DNA from: Auanema rhodensis
Lineage: Eukaryota; Animalia; Nematoda
Assembly (NCBI GenBank): GCA_964057225.1
Contig: OZ059894.1
Location: 10,788,001 to 10,852,000 of the forward strand
Direction: 5' to 3'
Length of the DNA stretch: 64,000 nt
Shown here: positions 1,090 to 29,171 of the stretch, piece by piece
Layout: each line of letters starts with the position of its first letter
Numbering within the stretch: position 1 is the first letter of the stretch
Made by a program: the position numbers and the translations under genes
The notes under the pieces: generated by a model
Told to the model about the DNA's origin: nothing
Seen by the model: only the letters and a program-made list of their open reading frames with translations
Database searches by the model: none

Positions 1090-3295
1090 ATGAAGATAAC
1101 TGTATTTCTGTTATTCGGCATTTGTCATATTTGCACAACACAACAACGTAAGTTTCCAGAAATATACTTAGGAATAAAACTTTATTGTAGCATGTACATT
1201 AAAGTTTTATATTCATCTATATTAACATGTTCATTAAATAACACCAAATAACAAACATTTTAAATATAATCTCTGTCTCTTTATTTAAGCAAACACATTT
1301 CAAGTAGTTTCATCATCTGTGACTCAGATCTGTTGTAACTTTTACAAAATTTATAATGCAAAGTTAGAACTTCTTATTCACCGAAGAAGAAAGTTCATCT
1401 AATTTTTATGTTCTCTATGTTTTGTTGTCAAGAAAAAGGATGCTTTATTGATTGCAATACTTCAGATTTCTACGGCTCATACTGATATTTTTCATTTCAG
1501 TAGTAACACACTTGGTCTAAAACCTTTAACTATTCCCTACCTTAACACACCTGAATGTTGAAAAAAACTTCGAACTTATTATATTTTTTACAGTTGGACA
1601 AGATAGTAATGGACAATTTATTCAATCTTCACAATTTATTTATACTTCATCTAATAGAGACAATCCCTCCTCGAGTAATGTTCAAAACGTAACCCCAGTG
1701 TTGAGAGATTCACCATCAGGTGGAAGCAACGGAATCTCAACCACATTCCCCCAATATTATGACACAAGCTCACCCTCCGGAATAAATAGCTATTCTTCCT
1801 CCTCTTTTTCTTCAACAACTATGCCAACTTTAATGTATGGAAATCAGCCAGGGTATAGTAATGGGCAGGATCAATCTGGCCAGTTCCAAAACGACCAATA
1901 TGGCTCTCAACAGCCAGGACAAAATAACCAATATTCTCAGCAGGAACAAAACGTAAATGGAGGAAATCAACAATATCAATCCACTAGTAACAATTATCAA
2001 AACACAAATTTTGCTTCTACTTCTCCCGGACCTCAACAACAATATCAGAATAGCCCAGGAACTCAGCAACAATATCAGAATATTCCTGGATCTCAACAAC
2101 AGTACCAGAGCAGTCCTGCTCCTCAATCACAATATCAAAATGCTCCTGGATCTCAACAGCAATATCAGAATATTCCTGGATCTCAACAACAGTACCAGAG
2201 CAGTCCTGCCCCTCAATCACAATACCAAAATACTCCTGGATCTCAACAACAGTACCAGGGCAGCCCTTCCCCTCAAGCACAATACCAAAATGCTCCAGGG
2301 TCGCAACAACAGTACCAGAATTCTCAAGGTGGAAACCAGAACCAGTACACCCAATATAACGACCAACCAAATCAGTTTGGTCAAAATTTCAATTCTAATC
2401 AGCCGTCGCAAGGAGTTTCAAATGATCAGTATGGATATAACAAAGGCAACTACTATGATCAAGGAAACCAAAACTTGAATCAAAATCAAAACTCTGGCCA
2501 ATTTCCATCAAACACAGCTGGAGCAACAAATGGAGTTGATTCAGGTTATAACAAACATATTTAGTCGCAAGAACAAACTTAAAGAATCATATATCATACA
2601 TATGTAATTTATCAACAAATATCAGCGGCCTTTGCTACTTAAAATCTAAAAACTATCTTGTTCAACAAGTGACATAAAATTGTTTTAGTGTTTTCTGGGC
2701 AAAATACGATGACTGGAAATGGAGGAGTTTACACGAGTGGAAGACAGTTTACATATGGAGGTTGTATATACTCTGTAAGTTGAAAGGTGGGCAAAACTAA
2801 TTATGTTTAAATAATTTAAGAACGGATATGTTACTGAAAATGGGCAAAGGAGACAAGCTACTCAAGAAGAAATTAATAAAGTAAATCAATATGATCAGCA
2901 ATGGAATCAATACCAAGTTCAATTCAACAAAAACGTAAACTTACTGTTATAAATATATTTCAAAAACTATGTTTAGATGAATGAATTCATGAGTAACATC
3001 TTCTCAGGGTCGTTTCCCTTTGGTCCTCAAAAATCTCCACAGGCTCTTCAGGTTCCTGATGTTCCTCAGGTGATTTCTAGTTACCTCATACAGCTTAAAT
3101 CTATATAATTGCAGGCTCCATGTTTGTGCAGCCCCCAAGTTTGCAACCCTGGTTCACAGTTCAATTTTCCAAATAGATTATATGACTCTGATCAACAGCA
3201 ATTCCAGAACAATCAAGTAAGCCTCAATTTTTAATATTTCCACAATTGATCATTCATTTTAGCCCAACGATCCTTATTATCAGCAAGGAAAATAA
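1090..3295 (+). CDS. Secreted Q/N-rich (PQN-like) protein with 10-aa repeats and a C-terminal pepsin-inhibitor-3-like domain; multi-exon
   Basis: ATG 1090 encodes signal peptide MKITVFLLFGICHICTTQ, with a TATA box at ~1029. Large Q/N/S/Y-rich exon (ORF 1698-2564). Downstream exons read GCIYS/NGYVTENGQRRQATQEEINKVNQYDQQWNQYQ...P..APCLC, resembling the nematode aspartic-protease inhibitor (Pepsin-I3) repeat. Stop TAA 3293-3295. Confidence 0.75.
2025..2324 (+). repeat. Coding tandem repeat, 10 x 30 nt (PGSQQQYQNx / PAPQSQYQNx)
   Basis: Visible directly in the DNA and in the ORF 1698-2564 translation. Confidence 0.9.
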
Positions 3296-14652: not shown

Positions 14653-16717
14653 TCACGATCTTTTTCGAAAAACTCCGTAAATTATAGGGTTGACTATTGA
14701 ATTAGCGCATATTAGAGCATTCAAAAAGCTGACAGGGAATGGTAATCCTCCAAAGCCAAGTAATGATAATACGGCTAACACATTATATGGAGTCCAAAAC
14801 GTTAAATAAGCAAGAATAATCCAAGCTGCTTGTCTTTTAGCATGCTGAAAATCATAATAGAGTTCATTTGATCGTTATTCAGACGGGTGAAAGGCTAAAT
14901 TACCTGTTTAGCTTTATGTATTGTGGTTACAGCTACGGCACCTAACCTATTAGATCCCTTAGATTGAGCCATACTGATACAACGAATGTTCGAATCAAAA
15001 GAATACTCTCTAAGAATATCTATAATTTTCAACTTAAACTAAATCTTACTCTTTAACTTTCACAACACAAGACGAATCCTCGGCTTGCAACATCGTTGAA
15101 CTAGCTGACATAGGATAGTCTACAAAGGTTTTATATTAAAGGATACCCTGATATACTTTCATTTATTTTAATTTAATGGCTAAATTAAACCGTATTTCTT
15201 CAAAATATGGCTAAATTGATTGAATAGTTTGAAAAGAGAGAACGAAGTAAACAAGAAGGAAAAAAATTTAATCAGACAGTTTTTCTCTGACAAAAGGCTA
15301 AAACAAACGAAATTTAATTATAACAGGCTTATAAGAAAGAGATTTTTTGTAAAGAAATTGCCAATTTACGTTGCTTTTAAATTTATAAAATATTTTTAAC
15401 CTAATTTTTCTCCTATTTTCTCACGTTTTGGGCATGATGTGCAGTTGAACACATTGTCTGAATACAAAAAAATATTATGAACAAGAATATAATATTACTT
15501 TCGCTTAAATGTCCTTGAAGAATAAATACAACAGTTAGATAGCTTACAACGATTATAATACAAGGAATCCAAAATACAAAAAGTAGATGAGCAACGTTAT
15601 ATATATGCTCAATATTTTGGATTACTCTTAATTGAGTTGATACCTGAAAATAATGAAAAGTTTGTAATATTTTTAAATAAAGAATATTTTAAAACATACT
15701 GATTCACGTTGATATTCAGGTAATTCCGTATTATTTATAATAGGATATGATTCAAAGACAATAACAGTCCATAAAGGAACACATTGGCTGGAAGAAAAGA
15801 ACAATGGAGAAAAAATATATAGTGAAGGGAAAACCTGAAATTTTCCATAGGCTTGAATATCCTGAATATAAAAACTTGAGGAATACTTAGAAGCAAAGCC
15901 AAAAGCCAGGCGACAGAAAGTAAACTCCGACATCGTCTATAAGATTGCCGATGTGCAGTCAATGAGCTTAAGTCGAATAGAATAAGTTATAAGAACAACT
16001 TAATATAGAAGTTACCTAATATTATAAGCTCCGTATACTCTATCAATTGATATACAAGATATAATAGAAGAAATCAAATAAAATGAGAATGTTGAAAAGA
16101 ATGAGTTGATTCGACATAAAAATTCACCCCCTAACCACTAAAAGAAAATTGAAGAAAATAAAAAAAAATAGTTTTTGTTACTTGATATGTAAGCATCCAA
16201 ATAATTTGTCGAGGTACATATATAAATATAGTTATTAAATCTGCTATATTTAAATTAATTCGAAGAAGTAAGATTGGGCTTTTTGCTTTGTGATTCCTAG
16301 AAAACAATTCAAAAGTAAAACTTGAAAATCAACAGTGAAATTCAAAATAATAAATGAAGATATACCTAAAAGCTCGGAACGACTTTTGAAATGATAAAAC
16401 ATTTAAAGGACCACCCACACAAAGTATGCATATTAATATTGTCACTTCAATCTAAAATCATTTGAAAGTCATTAATCAGTAGTAAGTTTGAATAAATATT
16501 TCTTTTTTTTATTTTTGTTCTTTGAATTCGAATAGCCATAATGTTTTTTAAAAGTCATTTCCAAAGAAAAAACAACGATGTATACCGTTCCTACTGTTCC
16601 CAAGCTCATGTCAACTTGCGAAGTCGATGATGTAACTGTTTCTGAAGTTACATCTATAGACTCCAATGAGGTTGGCATTGTATGATTTGATGTGAAATTA
16701 TTGTTATAATTCATCAT
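14653..16717 (-). CDS. Rhodopsin-family GPCR, GnRH/AKH-receptor-like (gnrr family); multi-exon
   Basis: N-glycosylated N-terminus; GGPLN (TM1), INLNIADL (TM2), WLGGEFLC, CISIDR (TM3), VAWLLALLLSIPQ (TM4), QC, FWIPCIIIVVSY (TM5), FWTPY (TM6), NSIVNPIIYG (TM7). Confidence 0.85.
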
Positions 16718-19486
16718 CTGAATATATAGTTTTTTAGATTTGTAAACAACGCTTAATGATATTCAAAGACATTTTGTTAACATAAATGTACATGTACTTG
16801 TGTATGAATATATTATAAAATAGGAAAACATAACAAAAAATATATTCTAAAGCTATGAAAAACCTAAGTCATGAACGAAGAAACGAATTCAAAAATAAAA
16901 TAAAGAAAAAAACGAGGTTAAGCCAAATAAACAAGAGAAAATGCCGCATTTTCAAAAACTAGAATACACATGTATTTTCAGGTTAGCTTCAACATAACTT
17001 ATGAGTTTTGCATGTAAATGGTTTCTTTCAACAAAGTACAGTTAAGCAGAAAAAGCCCTAATACATATGACTAGGTTCTCTTTTTCTTCAAAAGATTTCC
17101 GAAAAACAATGATCACTTTCAACAAAATACACAAAAATTTCCGTAGGAGGCTGTTTTCATTAATTTATCTTTTTTGTTAGAAGATCATGAGACCCTAAGC
17201 TTTACTTTTATAATCTAATGAAAATATTTCATTTTCTAAGAATATTTGATCTAACGAATACAATAAAATTGAAGGCAAAAAGTTTATGAAAAATTAAATG
17301 AAAGTTTCGTTCTTAAAAGTAATTGAAAAAAATCAAGAATATTAGAAAAAAAGAAAAAAAACAGAAATTACTTGTTTTCTGAAAAACAAAGTGAGTAAAG
17401 GAAGAATTATTCTAAAGTCAATGAGCTCTTCCATGACATGCTTTCATGTGTAAATTTTTGGTTTAAATTGCACCTTCACTAAGAGAAAGGCGTTAAAACA
17501 TCATTTCCAGAAGATAGAAAGAAAGAAACCAAGAAAGGAATGGGTGGAGCTCCATAACAAAGCCAATGATTCCTGTAGACTTTACTGTTTACGCTTTCTT
17601 CATCTGAATAAAAAGAATATGAAAGAAGTCCTCAAATGATACATTTGACGAGAAAATTTCTATAAAAACTATTTTCATGAAGAAAATCATAAAACTATTG
17701 GAAGATTTATTCAATTATAATTATTTTAATAGATTTATCGATTAAGAAAAGATTGAAGCCTATTTTCAATTCATGTAAGTCTGCCAAAATTGAAGTTTTA
17801 TTGTATTGATTAAAATATAATAAAACTTATAATAATAAAAAAATTATTTTATTATTATTATGTTAATGAGGATATGAGAATATTTCAGAAATTCATATAG
17901 TTTAAAGAATCTATGAATATAAACTTAATACAAGTTATAATTTATTTTGACTGAGTAAGAAATTTTATTATAATAACTTGAACTCCCTAATCATCCTAAT
18001 TTAACTAAATTTTCTTTTAATTTGACTTATTATAGTGTATTTCGTATAATAATTTTCAGATAACATTATTTAGGTCGTTGTCCAGCTTGGCAATGATTTT
18101 CCTCAGCTTCTTTGACAGCCAACTTGACGATAATACACGAAATTCACGAAAGTTACGAATAGAGAAATAACAAAATGGAAAACTCGAATAGGATTCATAG
18201 TTCCTAATATACAAAAGAAATTTAAAAAAGAAATTTCATATAATAGGTTGAGTTTATACATACATATGTACATACATACATACATATATTTAAAAGTTAG
18301 AATTGGTTCTTATCCCTAAGATAAAAATAAAAAAATCTGAATTTTCAACATTTTAGTATAAAAGCTCTTTCATATAATGATAAAAAGAAACATTGTGATT
18401 AAAATGGAAGAAAAGCCTTATGATGAAATAAAAGTTGCTGTAAGAGATTAGTATCTCCTCATACAACTTCAACAACTATTTTCATATTCGAATGATCTTT
18501 TGTCTTCGTCGAAGCTTTATTGGTCATAACTTGCTGTATAAGTTAACAATTACATATTTATATTATATTGGATAATTAAAAATACATTTAACTATTAAAA
18601 TTATATGAATATATGTACTTTTCATTACGATTTCATATTTAGATTGAATAGAAAAATAATTTAAAAGATTATGTTATATGATGAATATAATAGTTTGTAG
18701 AAATAAGTAAGAATGAATTCATCGAATATACTATTAGTATTCTTCTGTATAAAACTTCTTCATATCCTAATGGGAACGAAGGTAATTACATTTGAGCACG
18801 TTATCAAGTCTCTGTCTACATTAGCAATTAACTATAAAATTCTAAGAGTTATATATATTTCAGGGAAGTCGGAAATGTCATTTTGAATACGCTTTTTCAG
18901 CACAAGATATTGAAATTGTAAAAATAGATTCATGTATATTCCCTTATAAGCCAACTACTAGTAATTCCAAAAGATTAAAAGAGTTTTGAATGATTAAAAA
19001 CAAGTGATATGAAGATAAAAAGATATATTTCAACTAAAAAATAATATTTACAAGCTTTTTAATAGAATAATTGGACATCATATACATAAAATTTGGTTTT
19101 CAATAATGGAGTTTCTTTTGGAATTTTCAAGAATGCAAGAAGTGAATTTTTGAGAAAAAAAGATGTCGGTTTTCAGAAAGATATCTAAGGAGCCATGGGG
19201 CCAAACTATAATTGCATTAGCTTGTAAAGTTGCAATTTAGTTTTGGAACGTTCTTTCTCTTTCTTTTTCTTTTCTTCCTCTCACTCTTTATTGCTCCCTT
19301 GTTTCTTTTTATCACACTAGACTAATGAATAAAAAACTTTCCAATAATTGAATGAATGATTAAAACAATAACAGGCATTTTCAAGAACTTTCTTGATATT
19401 TCCGTATATATTAAAAGAAATATTCCACTTTCTAGTTTTTGATCTAAACTCTTTTCGGATGAATGGAGCAATTTGTGAGGAATTGA

Positions 19487-20123
19487 TGTTAATACCAATA
19501 ATACGTATTTTGCCGTTCTAGCGCACCTTTTCGACCACATATCAATTTTCACCTTTTTCAGTCATTTTAAGACTTTTTTCATTGATTTTGTGTCCTAACT
19601 CTTTGAAAATGTGTCATTTTCAACAATTTTCAAAAATGGTAAAAAGGTCGAAATGTGTTACTTTAAAAATGTGGTCGAAATCCAGTGGTCGAAATCCAGT
19701 GGTCGAAATCCAGTGGTCGAAATGGTCGAGAAAAGTGAGCTGGAACGGTGAAAAAAAATAATGCTCAATAAATGATCTTTTCAGAAAATCTTAAACCTTT
19801 AACAAATAGTGAGATTGAAGAACTTGTAATATTATTAAAGATAAGAAACTTCAGAGAAATCTTTATGAGAGACACCTTACCACCACAAGGAATTTAAGAA
19901 AATGAAGTTGGAATTATAAATTTAGATACTTCTAGTGGTGAAGGAACTCATTGGGTCTGTTATTCTAAAAATAAAGGAAAGATTTATCACTTTGATTCCT
20001 TCGGACTTGATTCTTCTTTACAACTTCAAGAATATCTCAAGAGTAGAAATAAAAAAGATATAATAGAGTTTCGGTAATCAGCATTGTGGTTATTATTGTT
20101 TGTTACTTTTAAAATTATTAGAA
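19487..20123 (+). repeat. Left arm of long inverted repeat
   Basis: Reverse complement of 25170-25752, e.g. TGTTAATACCAATAATA..TTTTGCCGTTCTAGCGCACCTTTTCGACCAC; near-identical from 19723 to ~20060. Confidence 0.95.
19671..19730 (+). repeat. Tandem 14-bp repeat GTGGTCGAAATCCA (3 full copies plus partials), left arm only
   Basis: Visible directly; absent from the right arm. Confidence 0.9.
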
Positions 20124-20165
20124 AAATATGATTTTCAAAGTAGTGTTTTATCTCAATTTTTATAA
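19772..20165 (+). pseudogene. Adenain-like (Polinton PRO) cysteine protease, left copy
   Basis: MIFSENLKPLTNSEI..FMRDTLP..*..GIINLDTSSGEGTHWVCY..HFDSFG..HCGYYC. In-frame TAA at 19895-19897 and a 23-nt frameshifting deletion relative to the right copy. Confidence 0.85.
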
Positions 20166-23100
20166 CCATATGCCAGAGTCTCAAAAGAATCTGGAAAAAT
20201 AACTCTTTTGAATTGTAGCATTTTCGCTTGAGTCAATTCATTATCAAATACAACGTTTTCCTTTTCTTGGGTGTATAATTGTTGTTTGATACTTCGAATA
20301 CAACATTGTTTCTTTCTAGCAATACTCTTATTAAAAAGACTTTCACGAAAATCTTCAATTTTTAACTTCTTGACAACATTTTTCTTTATTCCTTTACTCT
20401 TTTTAACCTCATCTCCAGGTTTTGGAACTTTTGGAAGTTTAGGATTCTCTATTTCATCTTGAATTCTTTTATTGTAATAACCTACAAACTCTTGACGTCT
20501 TTCTTCAGCAATTTTATATACATATTGTTTGGGTTTCAAGGCTAAAAGTTAATCCATTTAATTCATCTTTGAATTTGCCAACAAATTTTTTATTTTCTTC
20601 ATTATACAATGGATGAACTTTAGGATATTCACGGAAATCGAAATATTTTTTTAATGAAGAATCTTCTAATAGGTCTTCATAAAAGTCAGATGTAAAAATT
20701 TCATAAATAAGGGAATCAGTATCCTGATAGCATAATTTAATGTTATCTCCATATTTTTTCTTCATAACATTGTAATGAAAATCATACATCAGCCACTTAT
20801 TCAACTCCAGGATAGCAAAGCCATCATAAATAGGCTTATCCAGAACTATTTTAGTTTGAGCCATTTCAACAAATCTCAATTCTTTGTTTATTATTATATT
20901 CCTATTAAAGTTAGGTTTCTTTCTTAACTTAGTTATTCTATCTTTCTTTGAAATGTAATGCATTTCACCATTTTCCATACATTCATACTCAGCAGAATAC
21001 ACCAACTTTACATCTACTCTATTACGAACATTCTCCATAGTTTTCCCAAAAACACTATTATTCATCAACTTAAAGAAGTCTTTTTCAAAATCATTTTTAG
21101 CCTTTTTACTAAGGTTAGTATTCAAATCAATATAGCTCGCAAGCCAATTACTCTCATCAAATTTAAGAATTCTCTTAATTTTTTTCAATTTCATTCCAAG
21201 ATCTAAAGCTTGTAGCAAATTTTGATAATGAATAACATAGTTTGTTTTATCTTCTAAAGTATTACACAACTTTTTGATTCCATTACCAAACTCTCTGATT
21301 TCAGGGCATAGAGGGAATTCATTATGCATCTTGTGAATTTCTGTAGGATACTCGAAGTCTACTTCTAATATACAACCTTTTCCTTGTCTATTCAGGTTTT
21401 CAATGTATTTCTGAATCATCACTTTGCTTTCTTCATTCATAGAAATATTTAAAATACTAAGTTGTTTTTGACTTTCGAAAACAAAGTTGTTTTGTGCTAA
21501 TTTCAATTTCATTGCCCAACCATATAAATTGTTTGCATCTAAATACAAAAGGAAGTTTGAACATAGTTTAGGATTAAAATTCTTCATATATTTATTATTA
21601 GCTTTCGTATACCTTTTAACAGCATTCACAATTCCACCTCTAATACCATTTTCAATCATGAAAAACTTCTCAGTATCGTTAATAGTGTCCAGTTTAACTG
21701 TATTTGTATTTTAGCATAGCGTCCCAAGATAATCCTGGACTTGTATAATACCAGCAAGGATCTAATTCATAGACATATCGAGTAACATCCCTAAAGTTCT
21801 CAAAAATATCTGCCAAAAGGAGCACATCATTAATCATATATATTCTAGTATAATCTTCTAAATTAGAGCATCCCATTTTTTTCCAAACTAACTTTGCATA
21901 CAAGTATTCCTTAGTTGTACATTCTTTTCCATTGAGGCTATCATAAAACGAAGAAATACTCGGGAGTTCAGTTTCTTTGTATCTCTCGAATGAGTTAATA
22001 TATTCATATGGATAAACACCCTTTTTCTTCATAGTTTCGAAGATATCCTTACCTTGAGTGGAGTAATAATCTTTTAATCTTTTATCATCTAAATTTTCTG
22101 CAAGCTTATCTAATGAAGATAACATGAAACACATCGAATCTAGAAATCAATAATTGAAGTATTAAACTTTAATACAGCATTATAGCCAACACAAGACTCG
22201 ATGTCGTATATAGTCTTAGTATACGAATCAACTACTAAAATGCAATATGCAGATGGAACATGTTTTCCAACATTTTTAGTCCATTTATCTTTTTCCTTTT
22301 TTTCATCAGTAAGCTTCCTTGGATTATGAATTTTTTCTATCAAACTTTCGAAATCTGAATAGATAACATAACGATGCTTTTGAGTATTCTGATGATTAAC
22401 GTATCAATCAATCGTAATCTTCATTATAAAAGAGGTTAACAGTTCTTTCTTTTTCACATTGTTGAATGTCACAAGTTGAATGACGAATGTTATATATTCT
22501 ATGTTCATAATCATCGGGTGTAGGTTGGTAATTATTTCTCGTTTGAGCATAATTTGAAATAGAGTATTCATATGCAAAAACATGAACACTTAAATTATTC
22601 ATACCCTCAAATTTTTCAATATCTTCAAACTTGAAAGGAAATTCAAGTCCAACAAAATGCAATTTATCCTTAAAAGGCGTGTATTTTGTAACTCTTTCTT
22701 TATCTCTTTTAGCAGGATGTAGATGAGCTAGAATACACCACTTGAGACACATGTTATCTTTGTTCTGGATATTTAAAACAGACCTTTTACTAATAACAAA
22801 CTGAGGATTCGGTATGTATGATGCTCCTATCATTACATCAGTTTTAGTTTGAAACATATTCAATCTCAAAAACCTAGTTATCACTAATCCTGAAGCATGA
22901 TGTTCTCTATTCTCCACGTCATTCATTAATGTGTTACATGATGCTTGATAGAATTCTTCCCTACTTTCACCAGAATGTAAAAGTTGAATTTTCGTATTTA
23001 CATGAAACTTATGCGGATCACTAGAATCATCTTCGTTTCTTTCTGTTTCTTTGTTTCATATTCTAAATATAGCGTTATTCTCACATTATTATTTTTGTAA

Positions 23101-23479
23101 ATATCGTTGACTACAGTATTTTGCTTCTTCTCGAGAAAAAAGTCAATCTCTTTTTTACAATCGTGGTGTAAAATTCAATACCTTTCTCTTCGATCATTTC
23201 AAAAGAATTTTCTAGGAAATCTTTGTTGTTCTTACTTCTATAATTTGTTACTCTTGAATTAGCATTTTCTCTATCTTCTTGTTCCATAAAAATCAAATCA
23301 TCCATAGGAGAAATCTCATCTGGAGGTGGTAATGGATTTTCATGATTTTCTTGAGAATGATCATTAATAAATTGTTTCATTTCATCCACCTTCATCTTTT
23401 TCATTTGAACATCAGTCATTAGTAGTTTTTTCTTTTTATTAATTTTTCTAACTTCACGGAGCAGCTCATCTCTCGACAT
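20153..23479 (-). pseudogene. Protein-primed family B DNA polymerase (Polinton/adintovirus type), fragmented
   Basis: Six consecutive ORF pieces: N-terminal SYIP..NIQNKDNMCLKWCILAHLHP, exoI YSDFES, FLDS.CFMLSSLDKL, KKGVYPYEY, DVLLLADIFENFR, GIRGG, YLDANNLYGWAM, KLMNNSVFGK, YQDTDS, GKFKDE, KSKGI, TLAYGY. Several frameshifts; exoII region apparently deleted at ~22140. Confidence 0.93.
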
Positions 23480-23610
23480 TGTCAGATGAATTGGTTTAAA
23501 ACTAAAAAAGATATAACTTTTTCAAATTCTAGATGGAGTCAAAACTTTCTTTTATATAGAAAATTTTTTTTAAAGAAAAATTCAAATTTCTAACTCAGTG
23601 AAAGTAATGA

Positions 23611-23663
23611 ACGGCAAAAGGGGCGGGGCTAAAATCGGGGGGTATAGAAACGGAAAAAGAACC
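23611..23663. mobile_element. Orphan Merlin-like terminus
   Basis: ACGGCAAAAGGGGCGGG...ACGGAAAAAGAACC matches the right end of the Merlin relic (ACGGCAAATGGGGCGGG..ACGGAAAAAGAACC, 10971-11008). Confidence 0.6.
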
Positions 23664-23691
23664 TTAGTAACTTTATTTAATATTATTTTAG

Positions 23692-24134
23692 AAAAACCTT
23701 CATCATGGTAAAAGCCATACTTCCGAAACTTTTCTGCTATTGTCGAAATTTTTCGTCAAAGTTGGTGATTATCGAATTGCTTGCGAGATTCTTTGGGGGT
23801 TTGCGTCACTTACAATTCAAGGTAAAATGTATTCATTTTCAGAATTTATCAAAAAGTACAAGCTGAAGCTTGTGCTTTGAGCTGAAGCTTCACTCCCACA
23901 ACTCGAAAAGGCTCTTTCAGATGATATTGGAAGGCGATTTCTTGTGTTTGAATTGTGAGTCTGTAATCATGATTTATTGTCATTTGTATTATTTATTTCA
24001 GGTGTCATAATTCGTTTTACACGAATGAACATAACACCGTTGATATGAATAATACATTGAAGGAAGCAAACGAATTCATTCAACAGCTTGGTGCGTTGGA
24101 AATACCAGATGAAAAGAAAACAGAATTAGGTGTG
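23692..24134 (+). pseudogene. Intron-containing PaREP1/HEPN-like gene fragment (putative cargo)
   Basis: Spliced translation VGDYRIACEILWGFASLTIQEFIKKYKLKL-HSHNSKR..SDDIGRRFLVFELCHNSFY...LKEANEFIQQL. GT-AG introns at 23822-23842 (abnormally short) and 23955-24001 (47 nt). Confidence 0.55.
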
Positions 24135-24726
24135 ATTCTTTACTCTAATCCAACCCGGCCAAAGTTTTGGGTTAGCCCAGGAGAGGAAGTTCCTATGACT
24201 CCAAAGGCCAACCCACAAACGGCGAAAAAAGCCCTTTTGTCCGTTTTCTGGAATGAAAACGGAGTTCTCCACTGTGAGCTTTTACCTTACGGTAGAACAG
24301 ATAGATGGAGAGTTTTATTCTGAGCAGCTCAGACGGCTCAATGTTGCCATTGAAGCTCGAGAGGAGCTCAGAAGCAGGCGCGTGACGTTGTTACACGACA
24401 ACGCGCGCCCTCACTGTTGTGCGAAGGCACAGCAAACGCTCCAGGAGCTGAATTGGGAAGTTTTGAAGCATCCCCCTTACTCTCCAGACCTTGCCCCAAC
24501 AGATTATTATCTGTTCAGGTCAATGGAGCATAGTTTGAGAAAAATTTTTCGAGTCTAAATCTAAAATATTTTTCAGAAATGCAATAAGAAATTTGAAGAA
24601 GAGATGGGAGAAAGTGATTGAAAGCGAGGGACAATATTTTCAGAAATAAATTCTTTTCTTTTTTAACAGTTTTTTCGATTTTTTTGACATGAGACACTAT
24701 AGCCGCGTTTTAACTTACACACCTAA
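24135..24726 (+). mobile_element. 5'-truncated mariner (Tc1/mariner, DD34D-type) transposon
   Basis: ILYSN..R..WVSPGE, LLSVFWNENGVLHCELL, LLHDNARPH, WEVLKHPPYSPDLAPTDYYLF, RWEKVIESEGQY. 3' TIR (reverse complement TTAGGTGTGTAAGTTAAAACGCGG) ends at 24726, followed by TA. Confidence 0.9.
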
Positions 24727-25019
24727 TATTAAATGTTTTCTATTAAGGCACTTGTTTGATTTCCTACTTAAACTTTTGCCATTTTTCACCCATTCTCCGT
24801 ATTCTAGGACACACTTTAACTGAAGTTCATTTTTTAAGGACCTTGGTGTCTTGTACAGCAATAAGATCTTTTTTAATGAACACATCAAGTCCATGTCCAA
24901 CAATTCAAAAACAAAACAAACTTGATCTCACTTATACCTAGAGTTTTTTTATGACCATGGTGCCCACAAACCCTTGTGCTATGTATTTTGTGTATTTACG
25001 CTCTATGTGCAAAGAATAA

Positions 25020-25139
25020 AGTATTCAATTAAGACAAGAAAAAGTTTGCAAGTTTGATTATGATAAAAGAATCATCAAATATATTAATGATTGTATTGAT
25101 ACAATGCCTTACGGATTTATTGATAGCCTAAGGCATTAA
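25020..25139 (+). pseudogene. C-terminal remnant of a second, different pPolB
   Basis: SIQLRQEKVCKFDYDKRIIKYINDCIDTMPYGFIDSLRH* contains the YDKR...DT.PYG motif typical of pPolB C-termini. Confidence 0.65.
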
Positions 25140-25544
25140 ATCTAACACGGTTTCTTTGAAGTCATGAAATTCTAATAATTTCAAAAGTAACAAACAATAA
25201 TAACCACAATGATGATTACCGAATTCTTGAATTTGAAATGTTGAAAACTCAATTTTATCTTTTTTATTTCTACTCTTGAGATATTCTTGAAGTTGTAAAG
25301 AAGAATCAAGTCCGAAGGAATTAAAGTGATAAATCTTTCCTTTATTTTTAGAATAACAGACCCAATGAGTTCCTTCACCACTAGAAGTATCTAAATTTAT
25401 AATTCCAACTTCATTTTCTTAAATTCCTTGTGGTGGTAAGGTGTCTCTCATAAAGATTTCTCTGAAGTTTCTTATCTTTAATAATATTACAAGTTCTTCA
25501 ATCTCACTATTTGTTAAAGGTTTAAGGTTTTCTGAAAAGATCAT
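25128..25544 (-). pseudogene. Adenain-like cysteine protease, right copy
   Basis: Same TAA as the left copy (25419-25421); GTHW, HFNSFG (catalytic D to N), intact FQIQEFGNHHCGYYC; ends VLDLMP*. Confidence 0.85.
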
Positions 25545-25752
25545 TTATTGAGCATTATTTTTTTTCACCGTTCCAGCTCACTTTTCTCGACCATCTCCCT
25601 ATTTTTGAAAATTGTTGAAAATGACACATTTTTGAAGAGTTAAGACTTGTTTATGCTAGAAATAAGCATTAAAATGACTGAAAAGGGTGAAAATTGATAT
25701 GTGGTCGAAAAGGTGCGCTAGAACGGCAAAATACATATTATTGGTATTAACA
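25170..25752 (-). repeat. Right arm of long inverted repeat
   Basis: Reverse complement of 19487-20123. Confidence 0.95.
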
Positions 25753-26223
25753 CCATGTCTTTCTTAATATCTTTGGTCATTGACTACTATATATATTTAA
25801 CTAAAAGAGATAAAATTTTATGAAAAAAAAACCGAAATACAAAACTATATGAAATGATTTGTTACTTTCATTCAAAATCTTTTCATAAAAATGAAAAACT
25901 ACTACATTAAACTAATAAAGTTCTCGATTTCCTACTATTTTAGATGTGTTTTGTATATTCCATTAAATGTGTGTATATGTCCCACTATCACGATTTTGTG
26001 ATAACTATTTACTATAACAATTAGAACTCAAGTAAGCAGATCAAGGCTGTTTAGCGAAGTTTTTCAGAAAGTTTTTTTTTATTCTCATTTCTATCGTCAA
26101 ACCTGTGAAGTGATGGTGATAAAGATGACGTTAATTTCAAGATTTTTCAATTTTTTATGTATAATATACTCATATTATATACACATATCTCAAATAATAA
26201 CTTGGATTTCAATATTTTCAGTT

Positions 26224-27079
26224 ATGTTATTTCTCCTTTTGGTAGCTTTGCCCCTCTTTCAAGATTTAGTTCAAGCAGCCTACATTGAAAGAAATGCTGC
26301 TGACTGCGAACTTGCAATGACAAGAGGGACTCCAGGCCCAGATAAAGGATTTCGTGTATGTTATATTGAGAATAGGAGAATGAATGATAATAAGAAAATT
26401 TAGTTTTTCTATGATACTGAATTAGCTATGTGTTTCAAATTCTTCTATGAAGGAAAAAATGAAGGACGGAACTCTTTTAAAACAGAAGACGATTGCACTG
26501 CATATTGTGTCCCCCGTATGAATTCCTACCGAATGTTTTTGAACATTTTGAACTCTTTTCTCTTCAGAAGATTTCAATAGCTGTGGAGCAAATAAAACTC
26601 CTACTGGATTTTGCTCAGATATGATGAACTGTGCTGATCATTCAACTTGCCGTATGGGAAGTTTTGGATTTGGAATTTGCTGCGATAAACAGACAGAAGG
26701 TTAAACTTCGTTTTTGAGAATTAAACTTAAATATATTTTTCCAATCAAAACTCTTATTCAGAGCATTGGGATAAGGATTACTCCCCAAAATGCGCCAACG
26801 GGGCTGAAGTTGTGTCATTGGAACGTTGGTGGGGCCCAGCCGAGCTATTAGGCAAAAGCTGTGATCACAAGTATGTTTACTATTTTATTTATGTCTAAGA
26901 GCTCCTATGCTTTATTCAGATTTTGCCCCGCAAACAGCACATGTCATTCTGGAAAATGGCTTTCTTACTGCTGTAAAACTAGAACTAGAGCTAATCGAAT
27001 CAGAGTAGGTGATTCGAGAAAAATCTTTTCACCCGTTTTGCCTTCAACTTCCGTGATCGCAAATGCTGAAGGGTATTAG
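26224..27079 (+). CDS. Secreted Kunitz/BPTI-like plus Cys-rich domain protein
   Basis: Signal MLFLLLVALPLFQDLVQA; C.L...G / FFYD....CFKFFYEG..GRNSFKTEDDC..YC; followed by CC-containing modules. Confidence 0.75.
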
Positions 27080-27454
27080 ATATAACATGCCACTATATTT
27101 CAAAAAACTCTATTCGAATACTTATACATGTTTACATATCTTAACTTATAATTAGATATAGTTTTAATAATTAATAATTAATAATAAATATAAATTCTAA
27201 TAATTATTTAAACATAAAATAAAATTTTTAACTAGTTATATGTTATGTAATAATTTTATTATTTGTAGATGAATAATGAACAGAATATAGACACATATGC
27301 ATCATATTTCATTCAATATGTGCTTAATGATTTCAGATCATCAGATAAAAATCTTGAAATACAAAGACAATAATTGAATACAAATATTAAAATTAAATTT
27401 CATGAAATGATGTACCTAACTTGTTATATACATACTTCAATTCAATAGTTGAAG

Positions 27455-29171
27455 ATGTGCTATTCCACATATACTATCGTCTTTTTATTCTTTAAATTAA
27501 GTTTCGCCTTGAATGAAAGTAATGATACAATGGTATTACCAGGTTTTCTTTTATTTCTAAAAATTTAGAATCCAATTTTTTCTTTTAGATTTTTTCTATT
27601 TTCAACAAAAATTATTTGACGATACTATTTTTAAAATCAATCCACTGATTCCTCCTATAAATACTAATGGTGAAATGAATAGTAGAAATGTATCTTTATC
27701 TAGATTTCTTAGTAAACTCCAGTGGTTCTACTACACAAGAAAAGTTTCAAGTCCATTTGCATCTTGGCTTCATCAAATTAATCGATTTGGTATAAAATTC
27801 AACAAACAAACAAAGAACTTTATGAATCATTACAGAATGAACCAAATGAAAAAGTTGATTTTGTTATTGAATATATAATAGTAAATTCATTCTTTTTTTT
27901 TTTGTTTTAAAATTTTTGTATATTTAGAGTTACTCAGATCCTAGATTAAGTTGGAATGAAGATAACTATGATGGAATAAGTGTCATTTATCCAAATGAAG
28001 ATTTTATATATAAACCAGATTTAACTCCAACACAAAGGTTTATTTGAAATTAATTAAAATTGTTTATAATAACTCATATTTAGTCAATATTTTGAAGATT
28101 TTCGTCCTAATAATCAAAAATACGCGATGGTTGGTTACTCTATCTCCGACATTAAATTCTTTTTTTTTTATAAAATTTCAGCTTCGTAGTACCGGCGTCA
28201 TCGAAATTTATACAACTTTATTCATATCATGCATCTGTAATATCAATGTATATTCTTTTCATTTCTAGTTATAGATAATTAAATGAAATATTCATTTATT
28301 ATTTTGTAATTTCTAGGTTCGAAAGTTTCCTCATGATTCTCAAACTTGTAGTATCCGATTTTTATCTCAATCACTTTCTGCTGATGTTCAGAATGTTACC
28401 AATAGTATTACAGATCCATATCCCTTTCCTATCGATACTGTAGTAAGTATTGTATTCTTTATGATTTTTCTTTATAATGTTATAGGGTACCGGAGAATGG
28501 TCTGTAATAAACATGAAGCCATTCATTGAGGAAGTTTCTACATCTAGTACAATTCATCTTCAAATTGTGAGTTGTTTTCTTCTTTCCTTTGCTTAATTTC
28601 ACATTTCAGGTTAGATTTGATATAACATTTAAACGAAATTCAATTTACTACTATGCTTTAACAGTTATTCCTTCATTCATCCTCAATGCATTTTCTGTTT
28701 TTGGACTTTTCATCAAATCATCCGACATGATGGGAAAGGTTTGCTCTCATAAAAAATTTAAAAAATATGAAATTATTAAGCTGACTGTTGGTTTAACTAA
28801 CGTTATGTCATTATCATTTATACTCGGAATAATGTCAGAAATGATACCAAAAACTAAAACTTTACCTCTTTTAGGTAAATTATTTCTAATAAGCAATGCT
28901 AATTACATACTTTAAGCCATATATGTGTCCTTTAATTTAATTATCGTTGTGGTATGCTTGTTAGTATCTGCGGCTCTTCCTTGCATGAGCTTTCCTCAAC
29001 TCAAGTGCTCATCAAAGGGTTCACCAAAATTTTCTAAATTGTATGGTAAAATATGAATATTTCTCACAAATATTTTCATTTAGTGTAAATTGGTTTGATC
29101 GTTATGCCGTAGCAATGACTATTGGCCAAATCTTCAATATTATAAATCTGGTTTATTTATTCTTCGGTTAA
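27455..29171 (+). CDS. Divergent Cys-loop ligand-gated ion channel subunit (lgc family)
   Basis: Signal peptide, DPRLSW, IYKPD, Cys-loop CNINVRKFPHDSQTC, GEW, KRNSIYY, TM1 VIPSF, TM2, IPKTKTLPLLA-like M2-M3 loop, short M3-M4 loop, DR before TM4. Confidence 0.85.

What the first reader, a model, noticed from the sequence alone, without database searches (positions are those of the whole stretch)
19487..25752. Polinton/Maverick-like element whose inverted arms each carry a protease gene and abut two different pPolB genes
Seen: ~600-bp inverted arms, each containing a whole adenain-like protease gene reading inward. On the left it converges with a full-length fragmented pPolB ending FKRVIFPDSFETLAYGYKN*. 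On the right it converges with the tail of a clearly different pPolB (FDYDKRIIKYINDCIDTMPYGF). Known: Polinton TIRs are normally non-coding, and these elements carry one pPolB, one protease, an integrase and capsid genes with a 6-bp TSD; none of the latter three was found here. Inference: either a mirror-image two-polymerase architecture, or a chimera of the equivalent ends of two related virus-like elements.
Basis: partly seen in the sequence, partly recalled or inferred. Interest (0 to 1): 0.85.

Follow-up and report, generated by a model that had tools for sequence, protein, structure and literature searches.

The report
Two decayed Polinton ends, head-to-head
This is likely not a new two-polymerase element but the broken matching ends of two ordinary nematode virus-like transposons (Polintons) lying head to head with other transposon debris between them, whose shared protease region was likely copied from one end onto the other after it had already been inactivated.

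Summary
The inverted arms are real (19487-20134 / 25159-25752), and their unique junctions assemble without differences in runs of three studies. They are not protease-coding TIRs of one element. Each arm looks like the normal pPolB end of a nematode Polinton: a short high-copy terminal repeat, a protease gene, and a converging pPolB. The left piece is a fragmented pPolB (62% to C. briggsae HNH-bearing pPolB2-type proteins, its own HNH region deleted). The right piece is only 39 codons of a different pPolB tail, likely pPolB1 (not testable here). A one-ended mariner and a likely LINE scrap lie between them. There is no TSD, no integrase or capsid gene, and the inner junction is single-copy. 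Both proteases carry the same premature stop, seen at exactly twice single-copy depth and not in the family's other copies, inside a tract with 2 mismatches in 339 nt: the arms were likely homogenised locally after decay. Polymerase-class swapping in nematode Polintons and adjacent multi-replicase insertions are published. Verdict: a one-off composite fossil of a known kind, mildly interesting as a possible trace of exchange between the two polymerase classes. Contiguity across ~23600-23770 was not shown.

The parts
19487..19760 (+). Left terminal-repeat remnant of a Polinton (high-copy; holds a 14-nt tandem unit at 19671-19723); no (AGT)2 end motif nearby
   Evidence: summed depth 19445-19673 about 25-40x flank in X1, X4, X9
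19772..20165 (+). Left adenain-like protease pseudogene (stop at 19895-19897; 23-nt deletion after 20069)
20153..23479 (-). Fragmented pPolB of the nematode pPolB2 (HNH/EndoVII) type; six frame pieces, two internal deletions, HNH region missing
23610..23659 (.). GC-rich 50-nt motif upstream of the pPolB start; multi-copy elsewhere in the genome; role unknown
   Evidence: sequence; depth and loose ends at 23610 and 23659
23680..24726 (+). Mariner (Tc1/mariner) fragment; one likely TIR at about 24699-24726 followed by TA, no inverse partner in the window; left boundary approximate
   Evidence: Pfam PF01359 and PF13358; best inverse match 15 mismatches; TIR likeness recalled
24728..25016 (+). Single-copy spacer with a likely non-LTR retrotransposon scrap (24824-24922)
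   Evidence: depth 1x in X4 and X2; motif recalled; Atlas nearest named family PF09004 at 0.80, a lead only; no Pfam hit
25020..25139 (+). 39-codon tail of a second, different pPolB (likely pPolB1 class, untested)
   Evidence: 15.2 bits on a profile of 104 pPolB2-type tails against a best shuffle of 8.0, left tail 38.5, members 59.9 or more
25128..25544 (-). Right adenain-like protease pseudogene (stop at 25419-25421, same place as in the left copy)
25598..25788 (-). Right terminal-repeat remnant ending in an (ACT)2 motif at 25783-25788, the likely true Polinton terminus
   Evidence: motif described for Mavericks in PMC8097293

Best explanation
The locus holds two decayed pieces, each a terminal repeat, a broken protease gene and part of a converging pPolB, facing each other across a mariner fragment; they are likely the same end of two independently inserted nematode Polintons of different polymerase class, and their shared repeat-protease region was likely copied from one onto the other after the protease had been inactivated. 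Steps: (1) shown: both pieces have the order repeat - protease - converging pPolB, which relatives also have; (2) shown: the left pPolB is pPolB2-type by sequence; inferred: the right tail is pPolB1-type; (3) inferred: deletions removed the integrase, ATPase, capsid and fusogen genes of both elements and one end of the mariner; (4) shown: a stop and other lesions are shared by exactly these two copies; inferred: local ectopic gene conversion or template-switch repair between inverted repeats 5 kb apart. The unit would be dead and immobile as such.
For: Protease converging on pPolB2 with overlapping stops in L003 and antisense protease at the end of C. briggsae CBG03970, E=2e-4; another copy in run X10 spans the protease-pPolB2 junction 20042-20544 with 34 differences. 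Papers place a TIR next to the pPolB end (Widen preprint passage; PMC11414722 passages) and describe pPolB1/pPolB2 classes with conserved other genes and TIRs (PMC10748475). Protease 3' ends differ in 24 of 93 nt and 10 of 31 residues without indels, and nothing aligns further in: two source elements. Core 2 mismatches in 339 columns, 23 in 228 outside, 0 of 20000 shuffles. Core contigs at 1.98x (X2) and 1.99x (X4) flank depth, and at the stop all remaining depth in those runs carries another letter. No TSD at three candidate end pairs; spacer at 1x depth; one other single-copy contig joins mariner sequence to the same pPolB tail in the same order (joint 24126-25097 in X1 and X4), so the right half seems to have its own history.
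Against: The class of the right tail could not be tested: no pPolB1 protein was retrieved. No listed contig bridges about 23600-23770 or the whole locus (tables were cut). The shuffle test overstates the sharpness of the tract: 11 of the 23 outside mismatches sit in one 35-nt patch and the outermost 84 columns have only 2, so the copied tract may be the whole ~570 nt. In X9 the core contig is at about 4x flank depth (40 vs 10.5), though single-copy contigs there range 10-28. Direction of copying is unknown. Summed contig depth is not a true copy number.
Confidence: 0.78

Rival explanations
1. Same two-element origin, but both ends are pPolB2-type (divergent subfamilies), so no exchange between polymerase classes is recorded here.
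For: The right tail scores above shuffles on the pPolB2-type tail profile (15.2 vs 8.0 bits), and 4 of its 5 best weak blastp matches fall at the C-termini of pPolB2-type proteins (E 0.5-2.7).
Against: It scores far below members (59.9 or more) and below the decayed left tail (38.5); 1 of 104 tails has P-Y in the final motif and none has Y-D before K-R; it shares no alignable DNA with the left tail. The YDKR...PYG ending of canonical pPolB1 is recalled, not from a call.
Confidence: 0.1
2. The two halves come from different loci and were joined by the assembler across repeats near 23600-23770.
For: No listed contig spans the locus or that junction; both sides of it are multi-copy.
Against: The 64-kb window has no N; both outer junctions and the mariner-to-protease junction assemble with 0 differences in independent runs; the near-identity private to these two arms is easier to explain if they are neighbours.
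Confidence: 0.07
3. A capsid-less, non-autonomous unit whose TIRs grew to include the protease through panhandle replication and which is moved in trans by Polinton integrase.
For: Both outer ends carry terminal repeats in the right orientation, the arms share 10-13 nt beyond the point where other copies diverge, and a preprint describes replicase modules bracketed by repeats (10.64898/2026.10.13.758929 section 13).
Against: No TSD; (AGT)2 motif on one side only; spacer and tail junction single-copy; every gene broken; mariner lacks one end.
Confidence: 0.04

Closest known systems
Nematode Polintons of the pPolB2 class (Jeong et al. 2023, PMC10748475)
   Same: Left polymerase 60-62% identical to C. 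briggsae CBG25579/CBG03970, relatives carry EndoVII/HNH; protease and terminal repeat next to the pPolB 3' end.
   Different: Only the pPolB end is left; HNH region deleted; no integrase, ATPase, capsid or fusogen gene; no TSD.
Nematode Polintons of the pPolB1 class (Polinton-1_CB type)
   Same: Right half has the same protease and repeat with a different polymerase tail, as expected where the two classes share their other genes and TIRs.
   Different: Only 39 codons remain; class assignment inferred, not tested.
Clustered Polinton remnants at C. elegans eri-6/7 (Zhang et al. 2024, PMC11414722)
   Same: Several remnants from the pPolB end at one locus; recombination between inverted copies proposed.
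   Different: There the repeats are TIRs and rearrange host genes; here the repeat includes the protease and no host exon was seen between the arms.
Tandemly integrated and multi-replicase polisuviruses (bioRxiv 10.64898/2026.10.13.758929)
   Same: Adjacent integration of elements with different replicases, some degraded, proposed as a route to replicase turnover.
   Different: The section read describes tandem cases and the text search found no mention of nematodes; this locus is head-to-head and has lost all virion genes.

Membership tests
Polinton/Maverick (derived from) | Protein-primed DNA polymerase B | tested here: met
   62% to C. briggsae Polinton-type pPolB, E=7e-140; broken in this copy
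Polinton/Maverick (derived from) | Adenovirus-like maturation protease | tested here: met
   PF00770 E=5e-4, below curated cut-off; H-W-V-C and H-C-G-Y motifs align with 17 relatives; both copies broken
Polinton/Maverick (intact element) | Retroviral-like integrase | tested here: not met
   No tblastn match in the window with 2 rve-positive ORFs of distant viral contigs; no such ORF among 21 ORFs of 110 aa or more; distant queries limit sensitivity
Polinton/Maverick (intact element) | Major/minor capsid proteins and packaging ATPase | tested here: not met
   No tblastn match with DJR- and A32-positive ORFs; the space between the arms is accounted for by pPolB, mariner and a 290-nt spacer
Polinton/Maverick (intact element) | TIRs with (AGT)2...(ACT)2 or (AG)3...(CT)3 ends on both sides | tested here: not met
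   (ACT)2 at 25783-25788 only; nearest AGTAGT on the left are 16478 and 20139; motif from PMC8097293, vertebrate elements
Polinton/Maverick (intact element) | 5-8 bp target site duplication | tested here: not met
   None at 19487/25752, 19484/25755 or 19467/25788; 7 chance-like AT-rich pairs of 5-6 nt among 61x61 boundary pairs, none at matching arm ends
Polinton/Maverick (intact element) | Length 13-25 kb | tested here: not met
   6.3 kb against the range in PMC10748475
Nematode pPolB2 class (left half) | Sequence affinity to HNH-bearing nematode pPolB | tested here: met
   Top named hits are Caenorhabditis and Heterorhabditis proteins, most with PF02945; no tree was built
Nematode pPolB2 class (left half) | HNH endonuclease insert | tested here: inconclusive
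   The region is deleted in this copy: residues 362-503 of P0001 have no match
Nematode pPolB1 class (right half) | Sequence affinity to pPolB1 | not testable with these tools
   No pPolB1 comparator retrieved
Tc1/mariner (middle fragment) | DDD transposase and paired TIRs with TA duplication | tested here: inconclusive
   Transposase fragments met; only one likely TIR

The most novel reading that the evidence does not exclude
A capsid-less, mirror-ended Polinton derivative: two ends of different polymerase class fused into one unit whose inverted arms grew to take in the protease gene and were evened out by panhandle replication, and which integrase from intact Polintons can move. A milder reading (about 0.3) is that the locus records sequence exchange between pPolB1- and pPolB2-class Polintons inside a host genome, ending at the protease-polymerase boundary where polymerase swaps would cross over.
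Probability: 0.04. Interest if true: 0.6.

Novelty: new member of a known kind. Interest (0 to 1): 0.2.

Why it matters
Mostly as a caution: head-to-head remnants of the same Polinton end mimic a TIR-bounded element with genes in its repeats. If the right tail proves to be pPolB1, the locus is a small concrete case of exchange between the two nematode Polinton classes within one genome, which Jeong et al. said their data could not track, and it points to the protease 3' end as the edge of shared homology for polymerase swapping.

Tried and rejected
No host genome was held, so copies elsewhere were seen only through run contigs. Searches for relatives of the right tail failed: phmmer over 1.84 billion representatives gave 1 hit, an unrelated repeat protein; the word search found no candidate; Atlas best 0.84, unnamed; Pfam none, NCBIfam one chance hit at E=0.13; two DNA-pattern scans of viral contigs gave 70 and 12 loci, none a pPolB end; supplements of PMC8502044 (cut) and PMC11161782 held no such sequence. 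Viral-contig scans with the single protease and with P0002 found nothing; the metagenome scan gave 2 distant loci at 41%, of which L001 has a different gene order. Of 5 loci from the protease alignment only L003 carries a pPolB next to the protease. Ginger-type ends were considered because the shared arms begin TGTTA and end TAACA (PMC2836005 passage) and rejected: no TSD, no Ginger transposase, and other copies run on past that point. Collapsed-repeat artefact for the 99% core was rejected for X2 and X4 (2x depth). Earlier scan findings: none. Supplementary Table 1 of PMC10748475 gives no gene coordinates and its maps and alignments are pictures, so the published gene order of nematode Polintons was not seen directly. 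The 2006 Polinton paper was not held.
Full report
Observation. The arms are real. Self-comparison gives inverted matches between 19484-20134 and 25159-25755. A global alignment has 25 mismatches in 567 columns, plus gaps, the largest about 75 nt missing on the right and 23 nt missing on the left. Each arm holds an adenain-like gene reading inward (PF00770, E=5e-4; 187 of 231 candidate proteins at E<=0.001, the best 57-70% identical). Neither is whole: both have an in-frame stop at the same place (19895-19897, 25419-25421), both depart from three near-invariant positions of the family alignment in the same way, and the left has the 23-nt deletion.

The left polymerase. The minus-strand gene from 23479 to 20153 is in six frame pieces. 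Its largest piece finds 7529 of 7994 scored candidates; the best named are C. briggsae CBG25579 (62%), CBG03970 (60%) and a Heterorhabditis protein (58%), and most top hits carry EndoVII/HNH. That is the pPolB2 type of Jeong et al. (PMC10748475; I read parts 1-4 of 7 of the text and parts 1 and 261 of the supplement). Residues 217-281 and 362-503 of the best homologue have no match, so the HNH region is deleted here.

The middle. After a GC-rich motif (23610-23659) comes a mariner fragment (PF01359 E=1e-12; PF13358 E=3e-7) with one likely TIR ending at 24726 and no inverse partner in the window (TIR likeness is recalled). A 290-nt single-copy spacer follows, with a motif I recall from LINE reverse transcriptases (weak Atlas lead). 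The second pPolB is a 39-codon tail (25020-25139). It scores 15.2 bits on a profile of 104 of 120 pPolB2-type C-termini, against 8.0 for the best of 200 shuffles (180 scored), 38.5 for the left tail and 59.9 or more for members. It is thus pPolB-like but different. That it is pPolB1 is inferred from its position, its distance from pPolB2 and a recalled motif; all attempts to fetch a pPolB1 comparator failed.

Protease next to polymerase is normal. Viral contig L003 has a 57%-identical protease converging on an open 1300-codon EndoVII-bearing pPolB with overlapping stops. The mis-predicted end of C. briggsae CBG03970 matches the antisense of the window's protease (55%, E=2e-4). A divergent contig in run X10 spans the protease-pPolB2 junction with 34 differences in 503 nt. 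Passages of the Widen preprint place a TIR at the pPolB 3' end, and passages of PMC11414722 describe clustered remnants from the pPolB end with inversions. I could not see the published gene maps, which are pictures.

Where the true repeat ends. I laid contigs of 6 of 20 listed runs; 9 of the 20 hold half the words or more, in three studies, one of which may be the window's source. Against flank depth, two bins of the outer 170 nt of the right arm reach 44-51x in X4, 28-34x in X2 and 39-55x in X9 (the bin between them is lower, 17x in X4); the protease bins 8-17x in X4; the pPolB tail about 2x; the spacer 1x. Summed depth is no copy number, but the step suggests a terminal repeat of about 190 nt with the protease inside it, not part of it. 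Loose ends of other copies just past 25742 hold an (ACT)2 motif in X4 and X2, the window has one at 25783-25788 and none on the left, and this end motif is described for vertebrate Mavericks (passages of PMC8097293). No TSD fits any candidate pair of ends. Ten ORFs from distant viral contigs, among them two integrases, a capsid protein and an ATPase by Pfam, match nothing in the window but the proteases.

Assembly. Contigs with no differences bridge the left flank into the arm (X9 18911-19534, X4 19213-19519), the right arm into the flank (25714 onward in X2, X4, X9) and the mariner end through the tail into the protease (X2 24704-25285; X9 24898-25281). No listed contig spans the whole locus or about 23600-23770, and the tables were cut, so a misjoin there is not excluded.

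Why the arms are so alike. The core 19722-20060 has 2 mismatches in 339 columns against 23 in 228 outside; 0 of 20000 shuffles reach this. The test is generous, since 11 outside mismatches form one patch and the outermost 84 columns have 2, so the copied tract may be the whole outer 570 nt with later damage. Contigs over the core lie at 1.98x and 1.99x flank depth in X2 and X4, and at the stop the rest of the depth in those runs shows another letter; in X9 the core contig is near 4x, where single-copy contigs vary threefold. The stop is therefore private to these two copies in X2 and X4, and the copying postdates decay. The protease 3' ends differ in 24 of 93 nt and 10 of 31 residues in frame, and nothing aligns beyond them, which points to two source elements. 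A further contig joins mariner to the same tail elsewhere, suggesting the right half existed as its own unit.

Mechanism. Most likely (0.78): two Polintons inserted close together in opposite orientation, one of them carrying a mariner; deletions left only the matching pPolB ends; the inverted homology 5 kb apart was then evened out by gene conversion or template-switch repair. Insertion order, deletions and the direction of copying are inferred. Rivals: both ends pPolB2-type (0.10), misjoin (0.07), a mobile mirror-ended unit (0.04).

Known context and novelty. Two polymerase classes on a shared backbone are published for nematodes, and adjacent integration of elements with different replicases is described in a 2026 preprint (passages and section 13). 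Six paper searches with results (listings only, apart from the papers named) showed no report of this head-to-head form, and the scan's own index held nothing. It works like nothing now: it is a fossil derived from Polintons, fails the tests for an intact element, and deserves a low score (0.2), with a small bonus for the possible trace of cross-class exchange.

Noticed in passing
window 24126-25097: A single-copy contig in X1 and X4 joins mariner sequence ending at 24126 to the pPolB tail at 25097 in the same order and strand; a contig with 3 differences at 25134-25142 is in X4, X9 and X2. Likely a sister copy of the right half elsewhere in the genome.
   Followed up: partly
window 19618-22720, 19823-20136, 19638-19800: Joints in other contigs skip these stretches: the genome seems to hold several internally deleted derivatives of the repeat-protease-pPolB2 end.
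   Followed up: no
window 23610-23659: A 50-nt GC-rich motif upstream of the pPolB start has high summed depth and different neighbours in other contigs; promoter or small dispersed repeat, unexplained.
   Followed up: no
window 25162-25720: Run X15, under another organism code, holds protease and repeat copies at about 85-90% identity but none of the flanks: a related Polinton family in another species or strain.
   Followed up: no
window 15700-18400 and 26200-28900: Flanking host genes look like a GPCR (left, + strand), a Kunitz-type secreted protein and a ligand-gated ion channel subunit (right), by eye from translations; the composite appears intergenic.
   Followed up: no
window 1530-2564: A 344-codon Gln/Asn/Ser-rich ORF with internal tandem repeats.
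   Followed up: no
L001 2785-4101: In this metagenome Polinton-like contig the protease domain is at the end of a 438-codon ORF with a different N-terminal part, next to an integrase.
   Followed up: no
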